Of a stretch of DNA of 64,000 bases, positions 30,520-44,330 are shown one piece after another. This stretch comes from an uncultured delta proteobacterium. Its GTDB lineage: Bacteria > Desulfobacterota > RBG-13-43-22. How positions within the stretch are numbered: the stretch's first letter is position 1; every line of letters begins with the position of its first letter. Both the position numbers and the translations under genes were made by a program. Below the pieces are notes generated by a model, which saw only the letters and a program-made list of their open reading frames with translations, searched no databases and had not been told where the DNA came from. Where the stretch lies: NCBI GenBank assembly GCA_963802945.1, contig CAWDKY010000017.1, positions 160,001 to 224,000 on the forward strand. Reading direction: 5' to 3'.

Positions 30520-31490
30520 TTGCCGAAGACTTAAAGGATTTCAAAAGATTTACGCCCAAAACCCTGCCCAAAGAAGAACCTCTAGTATTCGGACATAGGG
30601 CCTGTCAGGGTTGTGGGGAGGTCTTGGCTTTACGAATGGTGGCCAAGGCCATCGGAAGTCCCATGATTGCCGTCAGCGCCACAGGATGCATGGAGATCAT
30701 CTCCTCTCCCTATCCCCAAACTGCCTGGGCCGTACCGTGGATTCATGTAGCCTTTGAAAATTCCGCGGCCGTGGCCTCCGGCGTCGAAGCCGGCCTGAAG
30801 ACCTTGATGGCCAAGGGGCGAATTCCTGAGAAAAAAATTACCGTCGTTACCTTTGCCGGTGACGGAGGGACTGCGGATATCGGGCTCCAGTCTCTTTCCG
30901 GGGCAATGGAACGGGGTCATGATTTTGTCTATGTCTGTCTGGACAATGAAGCCTACATGAATACCGGCATTCAGCGTTCCAGTGAAACTCCTTTCGGGGC
31001 CATGACCACCACTTCCCCGGCTGGAAAAATCACGGCCGGTCAAACCACTTGGAAGAAGAATCTCCCGGCCATTATGGCCGCTCACAACATCCCTTATGTG
31101 GCCACGGCCTCGCCGGCTTATTATCTGGACCTGATGAACAAGGCCAAGAAAGCGGCCTTGATCCAGGGGCCGGCCTATCTCCATGTCTATTCGCCTTGTC
31201 CCACGGGCTGGCGGCATGGAACGGATTTGGCCATTGAGGTCAGTCGTTTAGTTGTAGAAACTAATATTTTCCCATTGTATGAAGTGATTGAAGGAAAATA
31301 TGTGGTCCGGAAAAACACCAGAGTCAAACCGGTGGAAGAATATCTTAAACAACAGCGGCGCTTTAGCCACCTGACCCCGGAATTGATCCAGACCATCCAG
31401 AGCCGGGTGGATGTGGAATATGAAAGACTGCTTAAAATGGAGTCTTTAACAGGATCAGCAGAGACCAAACCGGAAGCCAAAGAAGAATAA
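30516..31490 (+). CDS. porB: Pyruvate/2-oxoacid:ferredoxin oxidoreductase beta subunit (TPP-binding)
   Basis: GHRACQGCGE, GDGGTADIG, DNEAYMNTGIQRS, PCPTGW. Confidence 0.93.
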   Translation: MIAEDLKDFKRFTPKTLPKEEPLVFGHRACQGCGEVLALRMVAKAIGSPMIAVSATGCMEIISSPYPQTAWAVPWIHVAFENSAAVASGVEAGLKTLMAKGRIPEKKITVVTFAGDGGTADIGLQSLSGAMERGHDFVYVCLDNEAYMNTGIQRSSETPFGAMTTTSPAGKITAGQTTWKKNLPAIMAAHNIPYVATASPAYYLDLMNKAKKAALIQGPAYLHVYSPCPTGWRHGTDLAIEVSRLVVETNIFPLYEVIEGKYVVRKNTRVKPVEEYLKQQRRFSHLTPELIQTIQSRVDVEYERLLKMESLTGSAETKPEAKEE

Positions 31491-31491
31491 T

Positions 31492-31520
31492 TTGATTTCA
31501 TTAACGGCTTGAGATATAAT
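31492..31520 (+). promoter_or_regulatory. Sigma70 promoter upstream of the tRNA-Asn/GIY-YIG locus
   Basis: TTGATT-N17-TATAAT. Confidence 0.7.
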
Positions 31521-31559
31521 TTCTATTAATCTTAATCCGAAATCCGCAATTGTCATTCT

Positions 31560-31665
31560 TCCCCGGTAGCTCAGTCCCGCTGTTAGCGGGATTTCGCTTG
31601 AGCTCAATTGGGGGGAGTCCCGCTCGGGGCGGGATTAATTCCGCTGGAAGCGGGATTCGAGTCCG
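31560..31665 (+). pseudogene. tRNA-Asn-derived copy interrupted by three TCCCGC-N5-GCGGGA-type hairpins
   Basis: First 17 nt identical to the tRNA 5' end (TCCCCGGTAGCTCAGTC), a TTAA anticodon-loop remnant and TTCGAGTCCG T-arm; hairpins at 31575, 31618 and 31639. Confidence 0.8.
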
Positions 31666-31706
31666 GAAAAGAATAAAAATATTTTTAGAATTTAATTAGA
31701 CGACAT

Positions 31707-31782
31707 TCCCCGGTAGCTCAGTCGGTAGAGCGGGTGGCTGTTAACCACTTGGTCGGCGGTTCGAGTCCGTCCCGGGGAGCCA
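31707..31782 (+). tRNA. tRNA-Asn (GTT)
   Basis: 76-nt cloverleaf TCCCCGG...CCGGGGA-GCCA, anticodon loop CTGTTAA, T-loop TTCGAGT, encoded CCA. Confidence 0.97.
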
Positions 31783-31834
31783 AAAATTGAGAGGCCCGTT
31801 AATAAAATGGGCCTTTTTAATTAAGAGGGCGACC

Positions 31835-32110
31835 TTGCCTTTTTGGGTTTACATCCTCAGCAGTAAAACCACAGGGAAATATTACTGTGGACAAACCAAC
31901 AACCTCCAACTTCGAATTCAAGAACACAATGACCCGAATTACCAGGGCACAAGAACCACAAAACGATTTTGGGGACCTTGGGAATTGGTTTGGAAATTGG
32001 AATGCCCAGATCGAAGCGAAGCCATGAGCCTGGAACGATCAATTAAGAAAAGAGGAATCAGGCGATACTTAGACGATAAAGGAATTATTAGCGAGGTCGA
32101 AGCAGGGTAG
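31835..32110 (+). CDS. Small stand-alone GIY-YIG nuclease
   Basis: FWVYIL...YYCGQTNNLQLRIQEHN...GPWELV...RSEAMSLERSIKK; probable TTG start after GAGGG; the stop TAG lies within tRNA-derived GGTAGAG. Confidence 0.9.
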   Translation: MPFWVYILSSKTTGKYYCGQTNNLQLRIQEHNDPNYQGTRTTKRFWGPWELVWKLECPDRSEAMSLERSIKKRGIRRYLDDKGIISEVEAG

Positions 32111-32178
32111 AGATCCCGCGAAAGGCGAGACTGTTAATCCCGCTGGAAGCGGGATTAACAGTCCGTCCCGGGGAGCCA
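32106..32178 (+). pseudogene. Second tRNA-Asn-derived copy interrupted by two hairpins
   Basis: GGTAGAG + hairpin + CTGTTAA + hairpin + AGTCCGTCCCGGGGAGCCA (19 nt identical to the tRNA 3' end). Confidence 0.8.
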
Positions 32179-32186
32179 GAAATAAG

Positions 32187-32216
32187 AAAAGGGCCCGTCT
32201 TGTCGGGCCTTTTTTA
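32187..32216 (+). terminator. Rho-independent terminator resembling the one after the intact tRNA (31791-31818)
   Basis: aaaagggcccgtcttgtcgggccttttttt vs gaggcccgttaataaaatgggccttttt. Confidence 0.75.
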
Positions 32217-44092: not shown

Positions 44093-44330
44093 CAGGTTGC
44101 TGAAACCGGGTACCGCCCTGAAGGGGTGGGTGTGAGACGAGATGTGGGGCGAACAAAAAGGCCCATCTATCCCGCCTTCGGCGGGATTGCCCTCATTCCT
44201 CCCCGCCTTTCGGCGGGGCAGGCTTATTGCGACGTACTTTTATGTACGACTCATTCCTCGGGATTTTGAGCGCCTTGTATCTGAACCTTTTTGAGCAACC
44301 TGTAAAATATGTGTTTTTCCGCAAACTGTT
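44091..44330. mobile_element. Composite MITE; the inner part is an inverted homolog of 26145-26269 carrying two extra hairpins
   Basis: Ends aacaggttgctgaaa / tttgagcaacctgt and tttccgcaaactgtt; inserts tcccgccttcggcggga (44170) and ccccgcctttcggcgggg (44201). Confidence 0.7.

What the first reader, a model, noticed from the sequence alone, without database searches (positions are those of the whole stretch)
31492..32216. tRNA-Asn / GIY-YIG locus: tRNA copies rewritten with a 17-nt hairpin, a candidate undescribed repeat-nuclease system
Seen: behind one sigma70 promoter lie (a) a tRNA-Asn-derived copy (31560-31665), (b) the intact tRNA-Asn plus terminator, (c) a 91-aa GIY-YIG gene whose stop codon is supplied by tRNA-derived GGTAGAG, and (d) a second derived copy (32106-32178) with a similar terminator. 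In both derived copies tRNA pieces survive in order (5' acceptor/D arm, GGTAGAG, (C)TGTTAA or TTAA, TTCGAGTCCG, 3' CCA end). The DNA between them is replaced by five TCCCGC-N5-GCGGGA hairpins with variable loops (TGTTA, TCGGG, TGGAA, GAAAG, TGGAA). The same segment after the anticodon loop (CCACTTGGTCGGCGG) is replaced by the TGGAA hairpin in both copies. Known: small GIY-YIG proteins are nicking or structure-specific nucleases; no integrase or HUH transposase is present. Inference: a selfish module in which the nuclease recognises or propagates the hairpin and uses tRNA genes as landing sites, analogous to REP/RAYT but with a GIY-YIG enzyme. Alternatively the derived copies are transcribed tRNA mimics or guide RNAs.
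Basis: partly seen in the sequence, partly recalled or inferred. Interest (0 to 1): 0.85.

Follow-up and report, generated by a model that had tools for sequence, protein, structure and literature searches.

The report
Hairpin-marked tRNA-Asn nuclease cassette
A tiny nuclease gene sits beside the cell's only detected asparagine tRNA gene, flanked by dead tRNA copies in which short stretches are replaced by one conserved DNA hairpin, an arrangement that recurs across several bacterial phyla and appears to be undescribed.

Summary
One promoter is followed by a 3'-truncated tRNA-Asn copy with three hairpins, the intact tRNA-Asn, a terminator, a 91-aa GIY-YIG gene, a 5'-truncated tRNA copy with two hairpins, and a second terminator. 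A sister genome has the empty site: the same flanks and only the tRNA, 543 nt shorter.

Eighty relatives of the nuclease were examined, labelled as at least seven phyla. In 49 of 68 the gene lies just downstream of tRNA-Asn. In 70 of 80 the T-CCCGC-loop-GCGGG-A hairpin lies within 1 kb, about 30 times its density farther away. It usually replaces tRNA positions 25-34. Eight loci hold tandem arrays. The stem's seventh pair covaries, loop length varies, and two symmetric stem variants recur.

The same hairpin is the commonest 6-bp stem in this genome (67 sites, mostly in MITE/REP-like repeats). Its abundance tracks the nuclease within families (p=0.014), but not strictly.

Best reading: a selfish cassette of an SLX1/UPF0213-type nuclease resident at tRNA-Asn, akin to phage SegB, with the hairpin as its cis element. 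Nuclease-hairpin recognition is inferred, not shown.

The parts
31492..31520 (+). sigma-70-type promoter-like site (TTGATT-17-TATAAT) that heads the whole unit
   Evidence: 10 of 12 positions match. The same promoter precedes the lone tRNA at the empty site of G005.
31560..31666 (+). copy A: a 3'-truncated, rewritten tRNA-Asn copy. It holds nt 1-16, a second D-arm-like piece, TTAA, and the T-loop TTCGAGTCCGG, and has no 3' acceptor strand.
   Evidence: Not called as a tRNA. Folds with z=-5.55. Homologous A copies occur in G010, G008, G002, G016 and G014.
31575..31591 (.). hairpin 1, TCCCGC-TGTTA-GCGGGA (perfect)
31618..31634 (.). hairpin 2, TCCCGC-TCGGG-GCGGGA (perfect). It occupies the canonical place, replacing tRNA nt 25-34.
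   Evidence: The homologous A copy of G010 still has the native CGGGTGGCTG here.
31639..31655 (.). hairpin 3, TTCCGC-TGGAA-GCGGGA (one mismatch). It replaces tRNA nt 39-53.
   Evidence: A contig of run X1 reads C at 31640, which makes the stem perfect.
31707..31782 (+). intact tRNA-Asn (GTT), the only tRNA-Asn gene found in the genome
   Evidence: It is 100% identical in 10 other genomes of the genus.
31791..31818 (+). terminator-like hairpin with a U-run between the tRNA and the nuclease gene
   Evidence: fold of 31707-31825. Not listed by the simple scan.
31835..32110 (+). 91-aa GIY-YIG nuclease gene. It has a TTG start preceded by AGAGGG and a TAG stop inside the tRNA-like GGTAGAG.
   Evidence: single copy in the genome; residues Y6, Y17, R27, H31, N32 and E67 conserved in 76 homologues
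32096..32178 (+). copy D: a 5'-truncated, rewritten tRNA-Asn copy running from the D-loop to CCA. It overlaps the end of the ORF.
   Evidence: Its last 19 nt and the downstream flank are identical to the tRNA end and flank of the empty site in G005. D copies occur in L017-L021.
32114..32130 (.). hairpin 4, TCCCGC-GAAAG-GCGAGA (one mismatch). It replaces tRNA nt 25-31.
32138..32154 (.). hairpin 5, TCCCGC-TGGAA-GCGGGA (perfect). The flanks CTGTTAA and TTAACAG extend it to a 13-bp stem (32131-32161).
   Evidence: fold z=-6.83
32191..32215 (+). terminator-like hairpin with a U-run. It is the original terminator of the tRNA locus.
   Evidence: same stem reported on the other strand; shared with the empty site of G005

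Best explanation
The locus is an occupied site of a widespread, apparently undescribed selfish cassette that lives at the tRNA-Asn gene.

Its core is a minimal nuclease of 80-91 aa, consisting of the catalytic domain only and belonging to the SLX1/UPF0213 branch of the GIY-YIG superfamily. The gene lies about 20-110 nt downstream of the tRNA. It is presumably read from the tRNA promoter by read-through of the intervening terminator.

Nuclease-provoked breaks and homologous or unequal recombination, as shown experimentally for phage SegB, would create truncated tRNA copies on both sides. These are 5' copies upstream and 3' copies downstream. They sometimes expand into arrays, while one intact tRNA is always kept. 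The element can therefore occupy an essential gene without splicing.

In the dead copies only, short stretches are replaced by a conserved palindrome, T-CCCGC-N..N'-GCGGG-A, with a 7-bp stem and 3-nt loop. The stretch replaced most often is nt 25-34, which covers the 5' strand of the anticodon stem through G34. I take this hairpin to be the cassette's cis element: most likely the DNA structure (extruded or single-stranded hairpin) that the structure-specific nuclease binds or cuts, which would promote recombination, amplification and homing. In some lineages the same hairpin has spread genome-wide inside MITE/REP-like repeats.

Shown: the anatomy, the empty site, cross-phylum conservation, arrays, hairpin covariation and enrichment, and a partial genome-wide correlation. 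Inferred: nuclease activity, hairpin recognition, how the hairpin is installed, and the route of mobility.
For: 1. Insertion polymorphism. G005 has identical flanks with only the tRNA, and the window has 543 extra nt (147 + 396). G009 and G001 are also empty. G004 keeps a 24-aa remnant of the gene, and G010 keeps copy A only.

2. Conserved linkage. There are 157 confirmed relatives, of which the best 80 were kept.
- tRNA-Asn lies on the same strand within 450 nt upstream in 49 of the 68 loci that have enough upstream DNA.
- A TCCCGC-arm hairpin (loop 3-8) lies within -1000..+700 in 70 of 80 loci.
- Hairpin density is 1.38/kb near the gene against 0.042/kb farther away. Hairpins lie downstream in 61 of 79 loci, upstream in 34 of 65, and on both sides in 23 of 64.

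3. Placement. Of 147 exact hairpins, 143 are flanked T..A and 63 replace nt 25-34. The others recur at nt 39-46, 11-15, 39-53 and 59-61. The signature AGAG-hairpin-TTAA occurs in 6 of 301 phylum genomes. Four of these are among the 16 nuclease carriers and lie within about 450 nt of the gene; two are among the 285 non-carriers.

4. Selection on a stem-loop.
- The seventh pair is complementary in 94 of 106 distinct hairpins while its letters vary.
- The same arms occur with loops of 3, 4, 6 and 8 nt.
- Two symmetric arm variants recur and are found only near the gene: TCACGC..GCGTGA in 12 of 80 loci and TTCCGC..GCGGAA in 7 of 80.

5. Ongoing change. Close pairs differ by extra hairpins in otherwise identical dead copies (L128 vs L140, L141 vs L148). 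The same holds for G000 vs G010 in copy A.

6. Arrays. Regular hairpin spacing occurs in 8 of 80 loci. Tandem nuclease genes occur in 15 of 80. Examples are L081 (9 x 75 nt) and L096 (4 x 332 nt).

7. Protein.
- Pfam GIY-YIG matches, and the conserved residues are invariant.
- The model has pLDDT 85.
- The nearest structures are UPF0213 BH0048 and the structure-specific endonuclease Slx1.

8. Precedent. Phage T6 SegB, a GIY-YIG enzyme next to tRNA genes, cuts inside tRNA genes. It drives tandem [tRNA + segB] amplification through microhomology between the tRNA 5' end and the segB 3' end (PMC13096335, abstract and sections 7, 9, 10, 12 read).

9. Genome-wide link.
- TCCCGC is the commonest of 1073 6-bp stems in G000, with 67 sites.
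- Ten of 16 carriers against 14 of 285 non-carriers have at least 10 sites.
- The within-family permutation gives p=0.014.
- The repeat families that carry the hairpin differ between G000, G044, G169 and G193.
Against: - No experiment or RNA/DNA-end data bear on cleavage or binding.
- The protein has no DNA-binding domain, and its specificity is unknown.
- Dispersal is not tied strictly to the gene. G005 (43 sites, empty site), G010 (40) and G018 (41) lack the clade. In the class sample drawn around G044 (titled Nitrospiraceae), only 1 of 5 carriers is hairpin-rich, and those carriers have 36, 6, 3, 1 and 0 sites (Fisher p=0.15).
- Ten of 80 loci have no such hairpin nearby. L022 has the gene and tRNA but no dead copy.
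- If the nuclease cut the hairpins and repair used the intact tRNA as template, the hairpins should be erased rather than kept.
- The intact tRNA is identical in carriers and non-carriers, so self-protection is unexplained.
- In G000, most dispersed copies could stem from one acquisition by a MITE followed by transposition.
- Kin are not independent, and MAG titles and bins may be wrong.
- The protein tree is unresolved, so transfer between phyla is not shown.
Confidence: 0.5

Rival explanations
1. Immunity scar. The nuclease recognises the tRNA-Asn gene itself, in the region of the anticodon arm. The dead copies left by its recombination are tolerated only if that target is destroyed. On this reading the hairpin is a convenient, stable filler taken from palindromes already circulating in the host. 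The nuclease does not recognise it.
For: - The stretch replaced most often is the same tRNA segment, nt 25-34, in 63 of 147 hairpins.
- A related clade at tRNA-Ala has its anticodon arm replaced by a different short motif that is not dispersed.
- SegB cuts inside tRNA genes (PMC13096335, section 9).
- Hairpin-rich genomes exist without the gene.
- G000 MITEs carry several kinds of GC hairpin modules.
Against: - The intact tRNA next to the gene keeps the supposed target and is identical in carriers and non-carriers.
- A filler would not keep the same 12 arm letters across phyla, nor recur as only two symmetric variants.
- Carriers with almost no dispersed hairpins still have the hairpin at the locus.
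- Hairpins also replace nt 11-15, 39-46 and 59-61.
Confidence: 0.2
2. RNA-level elements. The dead copies and their hairpins act in the transcript (leader, tRNA-Asn, nuclease mRNA). They could be processing or stability signals, a decoy for tRNA-directed enzymes, or an autoregulatory site bound by the protein.
For: - Everything lies in one transcription unit behind the tRNA promoter, and arrays sit between promoter and tRNA.
- The stem covaries, and both copies fold far better than shuffles.
- An RNA-library contig covers 32131-32178 with 3 changes (weak, and DNA carry-over is possible).
- A 2006 survey noted a prokaryotic Slx1-like domain fused to a tRNA methyltransferase homologue (PMC1564403, passages only).
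Against: - The copies lack one acceptor strand each and are not called as tRNAs.
- No Rfam family reaches threshold.
- A 3-nt loop and invariant arms fit DNA or protein recognition at least as well.
- The same hairpin lies in MITE/REP-like repeats in both orientations.
- GIY-YIG enzymes are DNA nucleases as far as I recall.
- Loops are not enriched for GGA (12 of 106).
Confidence: 0.1
3. Resident, not mobile. The gene is an old, vertically inherited neighbour of tRNA-Asn with a cellular role in repair or recombination. The partial copies and arrays are ordinary recombination debris at a highly transcribed repeat-prone locus, with frequent loss.
For: - The linkage to one tRNA isotype holds across phyla.
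- Phylum labels cluster partly on the tree (18 changes against 25 in shuffles).
- D copies track the local tRNA. They are identical to it in 11 of 27 loci, and the own tRNA is the best or tied match in 19 of 27.
Against: - Distribution is patchy. The clade is in 16 of 301 phylum genomes. Close orthologues (E<=1e-29) are in 4 of the 14 genus genomes (G000 plus 13 relatives).
- An empty site with intact flanks exists in the closest relative.
- Different GIY-YIG clades are stacked at the same tRNA.
- This reading does not explain the conserved hairpin.
Confidence: 0.1
4. Ordinary tRNA-targeting island remnant (integrase att repeats), or an assembly artefact.
For: - tRNA 3'-end duplications are typical of integrase-borne islands.
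- G000 has such 3'-half repeats of tRNA-Thr and tRNA-Arg about 7 kb from their genes.
- G003 has a plain 3'-half repeat at tRNA-Asn.
Against: - The 543 extra nt hold no recombinase.
- One copy is a 5' copy, which att duplication does not give.
- The architecture recurs in 80 independent assemblies and in contigs of other runs.
Confidence: 0.02

Closest known systems
SegB, the free-standing GIY-YIG homing endonuclease in the tRNA gene cluster of T-even phages
   Same: Both are GIY-YIG nuclease genes next to tRNA genes. In both, tandem units of [tRNA + nuclease gene] have their junction between the 3' end of the nuclease gene and the 5' part of the tRNA. In the window the ORF ends inside tRNA-like nt 16-24. 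Both genes are present or absent between relatives. (PMC13096335; L096 and L144.)
   Different: - SegB is a phage enzyme with a C-terminal region beyond the catalytic domain. It acts on several isotypes, and no conserved palindrome is reported in the sections I read.
- Here the gene is chromosomal, encodes the catalytic domain only (80-91 aa), and is tied to tRNA-Asn.
- It is closer to SLX1/UPF0213 than to I-TevI.
- Its dead tRNA copies carry a conserved hairpin.
REP elements and their RAYT transposases
   Same: A single nuclease gene is flanked by copies of a short GC-rich palindrome that is also dispersed through the genome. The palindrome comes in a few discrete sequence families, and its copy number varies widely and correlates with presence of the gene.
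   Different: - The enzyme is GIY-YIG, not an HUH/Y1 transposase. None of the genome's 10 Y1 genes has the hairpin within 2 kb.
- The hairpins replace parts of tRNA copies.
- Dispersal is absent in several carriers.
Bacterial UPF0213 proteins (BH0048, EF2693) and eukaryotic SLX1
   Same: These are the best sequence and fold matches: 1zg2 at E=3e-8 by profile and 2e-5 by Foldseek, and Slx1 with TM-score 0.6-0.7. SLX1 cuts branched and stem-loop DNA (recalled, and stated in the abstract of PMC9071465 seen in the listing).
   Different: There is no RING domain and no SLX4 partner. No function is known for the bacterial proteins. The clade has its own conserved TTKRFxGPW and IKKRGIxRFL motifs.
Integrase-borne genomic islands at tRNA genes
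   Same: The target is a tRNA gene, the tRNA 3' part is duplicated, and one functional tRNA is restored.
   Different: There is no recombinase. 5' copies occur as well. The cassette is only about 0.5 kb, and the duplicated parts are rewritten with a hairpin.
Group I intron homing endonucleases in tRNA anticodon loops
   Same: Both are GIY-YIG enzymes, and the anticodon region of a tRNA gene is the place disrupted. There is a weak match to TIGR01453, group I intron endonuclease (E=1.7e-4, below the cut-off).
   Different: There is no intron or ribozyme (no Rfam hit). Function is saved by keeping a duplicate tRNA, not by splicing.
Small mobile palindromes (Rickettsia palindromic elements, yeast mitochondrial GC clusters).
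   Same: Short GC-rich palindromes are found inserted into otherwise homologous sequences, including RNA genes.
   Different: Those are longer and have no known dedicated enzyme. Here the unit is 15-20 nt and is tied to one nuclease locus.

Membership tests
GIY-YIG nuclease superfamily | GIY-YIG catalytic domain detected by profile | tested here: met
   Pfam PF01541, E=5.5e-19, 68.7 bits against a cut-off of 22.6. The AF2 model shows the beta-beta-alpha-beta-alpha-alpha order.
GIY-YIG nuclease superfamily | Conserved Tyr, Tyr, Arg, Glu residues of the active site | tested here: met
   Y17, R27, H31, N32 and E67 are invariant, and Y6 is at least 90% conserved, in 76 homologues. Their catalytic roles are recalled from the literature, not tested.
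SLX1 / UPF0213 lineage | Closest to UPF0213/SLX1 rather than to UvrC or I-TevI | tested here: met
   Profile against PDB gives 1zg2 at 3e-8, 1ywl at 1e-5 and SLX1 at 1e-4. Foldseek gives 1zg2 at 2e-5 and Slx1 at 6e-4..3e-3, while UvrC and I-TevI score E 0.09-0.7.
SLX1 / UPF0213 lineage | C-terminal RING/PHD domain and SLX4 partner (eukaryotic SLX1) | tested here: not met
   The protein is 91 aa and consists of the catalytic domain only.
Free-standing homing endonuclease (SegB type) | Gene present or absent at one conserved site between close relatives | tested here: met
   G000 is occupied and G005 empty, with flanks 90-100% identical. There are further empty or decayed sites.
Free-standing homing endonuclease (SegB type) | Cleaves the allele that lacks it; transmission by repair | not testable with these tools
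   Needs enzyme assays and crosses.
Free-standing homing endonuclease (SegB type) | DNA-binding domain joined to the catalytic domain | tested here: not met
   No residues beyond the catalytic domain are conserved except the short basic IKKRGIxRFL tail.
Free-standing homing endonuclease (SegB type) | Tandem amplification of [tRNA part + nuclease gene] | tested here: met
   L096 has 4 units of 332 nt, and L144 has 5 gene copies. This is not seen in the window itself.
REP/RAYT system | HUH (Y1) transposase as the associated enzyme | tested here: not met
   The enzyme is GIY-YIG. G000 has 10 PF01797 matches, and none has the hairpin within 2 kb (one lies at -2095).
REP/RAYT system | Enzyme gene flanked by the palindromes | tested here: met
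   Five hairpins lie within 300 nt of the ORF in the window. Hairpins lie on both sides in 23 of 64 loci.
REP/RAYT system | Palindrome dispersed genome-wide and co-varying with the gene | tested here: inconclusive
   G000 has 67 sites and the stem ranks first. The within-family permutation gives p=0.014. But there are carriers with 0-6 sites and non-carriers with 40-58.
Functional tRNA (copies A and D) | Cloverleaf with both acceptor strands and an anticodon arm | tested here: not met
   ARAGORN and Rfam call only 31707-31782. Copy A lacks the 3' acceptor strand, and copy D lacks nt 1-15.
Integrase-type tRNA island | Tyrosine or serine recombinase within the inserted DNA | tested here: not met
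   The 543 extra nt hold only the 91-aa ORF. The flanking genes are oxidoreductase subunits and a 4-hydroxyphenylacetate-hydroxylase-family gene.

The most novel reading that the evidence does not exclude
The 15-20-nt palindrome is itself a mobile mini-element. An SLX1-like GIY-YIG nuclease would recognise the extruded hairpin and, by break and templated repair, install it in place of a few bases in dead tRNA copies, MITEs and REP-like repeats. That would be a second, non-HUH solution to the REP/RAYT way of life. It would be coupled to a new way of occupying an essential gene: duplicating the target tRNA instead of splicing out of it.
Probability: 0.3. Interest if true: 0.9.

Novelty: new variant of a known kind. 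Interest (0 to 1): 0.8.

Why it matters
- Small stand-alone GIY-YIG (UPF0213) proteins are common in bacteria and have no known role. This locus gives them a testable substrate (one defined hairpin, with two natural variants) and a testable phenotype (recombination and amplification at a tRNA gene).
- It extends the newly described SegB behaviour, nuclease-driven amplification of tRNA regions, from phages to bacterial chromosomes of several phyla.
- It shows how a selfish gene can sit in an essential single-copy tRNA locus by keeping one intact duplicate.
- If the hairpin proves to be installed by the nuclease, it would explain where some short bacterial palindromic repeats come from. It would also offer a compact structure-specific nuclease with a defined cognate site.
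- tRNA-Asn annotation in such genomes needs care: one dead copy was called tRNA-Phe(AAA) by ARAGORN (L128).

Tried and rejected
- **Homodimer prediction.** The verdict was "no answer" (score 0.00), so it counts neither for nor against. My idea that the motif is a duplex site for a dimer is weakened instead by the variable loop length of 3-8 nt.
- **RAYT as partner.** G000 has 10 Y1 transposase matches, and none has the hairpin within 2 kb.
- **CsrA-sponge idea.** This was prompted by a weak PrrB/RsmZ hit (E=0.077, 20.4 bits against a cut-off of 44). GGA occurs in only 12 of 106 loops, so I rejected it.
- **Hairpin derived from the tRNA's own GCGGG (nt 24-28).** Rejected, because L096 has a different anticodon stem and the same hairpin.
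- **Dispersal of the tRNA-Ala motif.** There are only 2 exact copies, both at the locus.
- **Other isotypes in G000.** Four further tRNA fragments (Thr, Arg x2, Ala) are not near hairpins.
- **Public runs.** No run holds the stretch; the best share of words is 0.11. The laid contigs cover mainly the tRNA, so they say nothing about expression or habitat.
- **Tree for transfer between phyla.** The tree is unresolved: 4 of 74 branches are well supported, and the titles are unreliable.
- **Defence and phage libraries.** PADLOC gave only E=0.0025, and PHROGs gave nothing.
- **NCBIfam.** Only a sub-threshold group I intron endonuclease match.
- **Literature.** Seven searches found no description of a bacterial tRNA-Asn/GIY-YIG/hairpin module. 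Subscription journals and supplements were not searchable, so the claim "not described" rests on these searches only.
- **Tree of MITE copies.** I planned this to ask whether the hairpin entered the MITE once or several times, but did not run it. All four combinations of two hairpin modules exist, which recombination could also explain.
- **Failed alignment.** One search aligned G005 on the wrong strand and is void. I redid it.
Full report
**What is in the window.** The stretch 31492-32215 reads as one transcription unit on the + strand. In order it holds:
- a promoter-like site TTGATT-17-TATAAT at 31492-31520;
- copy A at 31560-31666;
- a 40-nt spacer;
- the intact tRNA-Asn(GTT) at 31707-31782;
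- a terminator-like hairpin with a U-run at 31791-31818;
- a 91-aa ORF at 31835-32110 with a GIY-YIG domain (Pfam E=5.5e-19);
- copy D at 32096-32178, which overlaps the end of the ORF;
- a second terminator-like hairpin at 32191-32215.

Copy A keeps tRNA nt 1-16, a second D-arm-like piece, TTAA and the T-loop, but has no 3' acceptor strand. Copy D runs from the D-loop to CCA and lacks the 5' end. Five T-CCCGC-N5-GCGGG-A palindromes sit in the two copies; three are perfect and two have one mismatch. In the window such a motif is found 8 times against 2.14 expected, and 0 of 100 shuffles reach 8. ARAGORN and Rfam call neither copy as a tRNA. The nuclease gene is single-copy in the genome. So is tRNA-Asn, among the 50 tRNAs found in 72 contigs.

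**Empty, occupied and decayed sites.** The tRNA lies between an oxidoreductase beta-subunit gene and a 4-hydroxyphenylacetate-hydroxylase-family gene. This neighbourhood is kept in the genus.
- In G005 the same promoter, leader and downstream terminator flank the tRNA alone.
- A global alignment puts window 31238-31558 on the G005 upstream flank (about 90% identity).
- Window 31706-31763 aligns with tRNA nt 1-58 (100%).
- Window 32160-32198 aligns with tRNA nt 59-76 plus flank (100%).
- This leaves 147 + 396 = 543 extra nt in the window.
- So the upstream flank of the ancestral tRNA now heads copy A, and its 3' end and terminator now close copy D.
- G009 (two contigs) and G001 are empty as well.
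- G004 keeps the tRNA and only the first 24 codons of the gene.
- G010 keeps a copy A with two hairpins and no gene.
- G007, G016 and G014 have orthologues (59-70% identity) next to an intact tRNA-Asn, each followed by a D copy. G013 (69%) has a D copy but only a 5'-truncated tRNA upstream. G002's orthologue (72%) has a D copy but lies on a contig without the tRNA.
- G015 has gene and tRNA without dead copies.
- G006 and G002 carry a different small GIY-YIG clade between the tRNA and the first one, each unit closed by a tRNA 3' remnant and a terminator.
- The tRNA itself is 100% identical in 10 other genomes of the genus, carriers or not.

**The same module in many lineages.** A scan of one genome per species found 157 relatives of the protein, and the best 80 loci were kept (49-71% identity). 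Their titles name Thermodesulfobacteriota or 'delta', Hydrogenedentota, Nitrospirota, Acidobacteriota, Verrucomicrobiota, Methylomirabilota and Zixiibacteriota MAGs. Titles and bins may err.
- tRNA-Asn lies on the same strand within 450 nt upstream in 49 of the 68 loci that hold at least 230 nt upstream. In four more it lies just downstream.
- A hairpin with TCCCGC arms and a 3-8-nt loop lies within -1000..+700 of the gene in 70 of 80 loci. Only 7 loci have one farther out.
- Counting the three arm variants, hairpins lie downstream in 61 of 79 loci, upstream in 34 of 65, and on both sides in 23 of 64. Density is 1.38 per kb near the gene against 0.042 per kb far from it.
- Of 147 exact 17-mers, 143 are flanked T..A. 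Sixty-three replace tRNA nt 25-34: the left flank ends ..AGAG and the right flank starts TTAA... Other recurrent places are nt 39-46, 11-15, 39-53 (the window's choice) and 59-61.
- Eight loci have regular arrays. Examples are nine 75-nt units of [tRNA 1-24 + hairpin + remnant] ahead of the live tRNA in L081, and four 332-nt units of [gene + D copy] in L096.
- Fifteen of 80 loci hold two or more nuclease genes in tandem.
- The direct repeat between the tRNA and the post-gene region reaches the tRNA 3' end in 40 of 50 loci. It runs at least 10 nt into the spacer in 24.
- D copies follow the local tRNA. They are identical over nt 35-76 in 11 of 27 loci, and the own tRNA is the best or tied match in 19 of 27, among 38 distinct tRNA versions.
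- The strict signature AGAG-hairpin-TTAA occurs in 6 of 301 genomes of the phylum sample. Four are among the 16 carriers, each within about 450 nt of the gene. Two are among the 285 others.

**The hairpin is under selection as a stem-loop.**
- The first and last 'loop' letters are complementary in 94 of 106 distinct hairpins while their identity varies. The element is therefore a 7-bp stem with a 3-nt loop and one covarying pair.
- At the canonical place the same arms occur with loops of 3, 4, 6 and 8 nt. This speaks for a folded strand rather than a fixed-spacing duplex site.
- Two symmetric double variants recur and are found only near the gene: TCACGC..GCGTGA in 12 of 80 loci and TTCCGC..GCGGAA in 7 of 80. 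About seven one-arm variants also exist.
- Loops are otherwise free, and GGA is not enriched.
- Close relatives differ by extra hairpins in otherwise identical dead copies. L140 has three where L128 has one, and they share the first loop. L148 has one more than L141. The window's hairpin 2 replaces CGGGTGGCTG, which the homologous copy A of G010 still has.
- Gains seem more likely than losses, but erasure by conversion from the live tRNA cannot be excluded.

**Genome-wide copies.**
- G000 holds 67 exact sites, against 0 for the reversed control. TCCCGC is the commonest of 1073 6-bp stems with 5-nt loops, and the next has 28.
- Thirty-nine sites lie in a MITE-like family with terminal inverted repeats, 18 lie in short REP-like palindromes built of 9-nt units, and only 3 exact ones lie at the tRNA locus.
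- In the MITE, the hairpin replaces 5 nt in a subset of otherwise homologous copies (about 26 with it and at least 25 without). A second GC hairpin module is likewise optional, and all four combinations occur.
- Carriers from other phyla also have dispersed copies: G044 has 36 and G045 has 21. G041 has 14 (10 at the locus) and G043 has 12 (5 at the locus). Their repeat contexts are unrelated to those of G000.
- In 301 genomes of the phylum, 10 of 16 carriers and 14 of 285 non-carriers have at least 10 sites (Fisher p=8e-9, not corrected for kinship). Permuting labels within the eight families that hold carriers gives p=0.014.
- There is evidence against a strict link. G005 (43 sites, empty site), G010 (40) and G018 (41) lack the clade. 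In the class sample drawn around G044 (titled Nitrospiraceae), the five carriers have 36, 6, 3, 1 and 0 sites.
- The hairpin is therefore intrinsic to the cassette, and its spread through a genome is an optional, lineage-specific sequel.

**The protein.**
- In 76 homologues Y17, R27, H31, N32, T41, T42, G47, P48, W49, E67 and K71 are invariant, and Y6 is nearly so.
- The AF2 model is confident (pLDDT 85) and has the GIY-YIG fold.
- The nearest solved relatives are the bacterial UPF0213 proteins and the structure-specific endonuclease Slx1. UvrC and I-TevI are far weaker.
- A 2006 survey placed 1ywl in the Slx-1 cluster. In the passages I saw it says nothing of tRNA genes as neighbours (PMC1564403).

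**Mechanism.** The best precedent is phage T6 SegB (PMC13096335; abstract and sections 7, 9, 10, 12 read). SegB is a GIY-YIG enzyme beside tRNA genes that cuts within them. It drives tandem amplification of a [tRNA-Tyr + segB] unit by homologous recombination through microhomology between the tRNA 5' end and the segB 3' end.

The window's ORF likewise ends inside tRNA-like sequence, and relatives show the corresponding arrays. I therefore read the partial copies and arrays as products of nuclease-provoked recombination.

I read the hairpin as the cassette's cis element, probably the structure the nuclease recognises. This last step is inference. The main rival is that the hairpin merely destroys a target in the dead copies. 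A related clade at tRNA-Ala shows the same A-tRNA-gene-D layout, with a different, non-dispersed motif replacing the anticodon arm. That fits either view.

Three things remain unexplained. It is unclear how the live tRNA escapes, how a hairpin replaces 3-15 nt at several places, and why the arms are so constant.

Noticed in passing
window about 44093-44300 (hairpin at 44170-44186); 58 copies with both ends in G000: A MITE-like family of 120-280 nt has terminal inverted repeats CAGGTTGCTSAAAAAGG. It is built from optional GC-hairpin modules. The TCCCGC hairpin replaces 5 nt in some copies, and a second module and a roughly 55-nt third module are also optional.
   Followed up: partly
G000 C17:116460, C17:287582 and 16 other places (outside the window): Short REP-like palindromes are made of 9-nt GGATTCRAG-like units around the same hairpin core, mostly in intergenic DNA.
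   Followed up: partly
L052 (G006), L057 + L017 (G002), L036 (G008): Other small GIY-YIG clades occupy the same tRNA-Asn site. They are sometimes stacked ahead of the window's clade, each closed by a tRNA 3' remnant and a terminator, in a cassette-array-like order.
   Followed up: partly
L023 (G031) and L038 (G025): A related GIY-YIG clade sits at tRNA-Ala(GGC) with the same layout. In L023 both dead copies have the anticodon arm replaced by GTCGCATCGACA. In L038 the ORF starts inside the anticodon region of an upstream dead copy.
   Followed up: partly
80 relatives' loci: A second and a third hairpin type with symmetric arm changes occur only near the nuclease gene: TCACGC..GCGTGA in 12 loci and TTCCGC..GCGGAA in 7 loci. 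I did not test whether they track protein subclades.
   Followed up: no
window 31640: A contig of run X1 reads C instead of T here, which turns the imperfect hairpin 3 into a perfect one.
   Followed up: no
G000 C17:419362-419407 and C17:503028-503072 (outside the window): 3' halves of tRNA-Thr and tRNA-Arg are repeated about 7 kb from their genes. They look like ordinary att repeats of integrated islands.
   Followed up: no
L056 (G003): The tRNA-Asn is followed by a plain direct repeat of its 3' half plus terminator, without nuclease gene or hairpin. The motif GCAGCACTATTGCAGC beside it also flanks the cassette of L019.
   Followed up: no
L128: ARAGORN calls a hairpin-bearing dead tRNA-Asn copy as tRNA-Phe(AAA). 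Such copies can be mis-annotated as tRNA genes.
   Followed up: no
G000, ten places (e.g. C31:1791-2150, C16:246271-246591): There are ten Y1-transposase (IS200/IS605-type) matches, some in open frames of 240-340 aa. None is next to the hairpin.
   Followed up: partly
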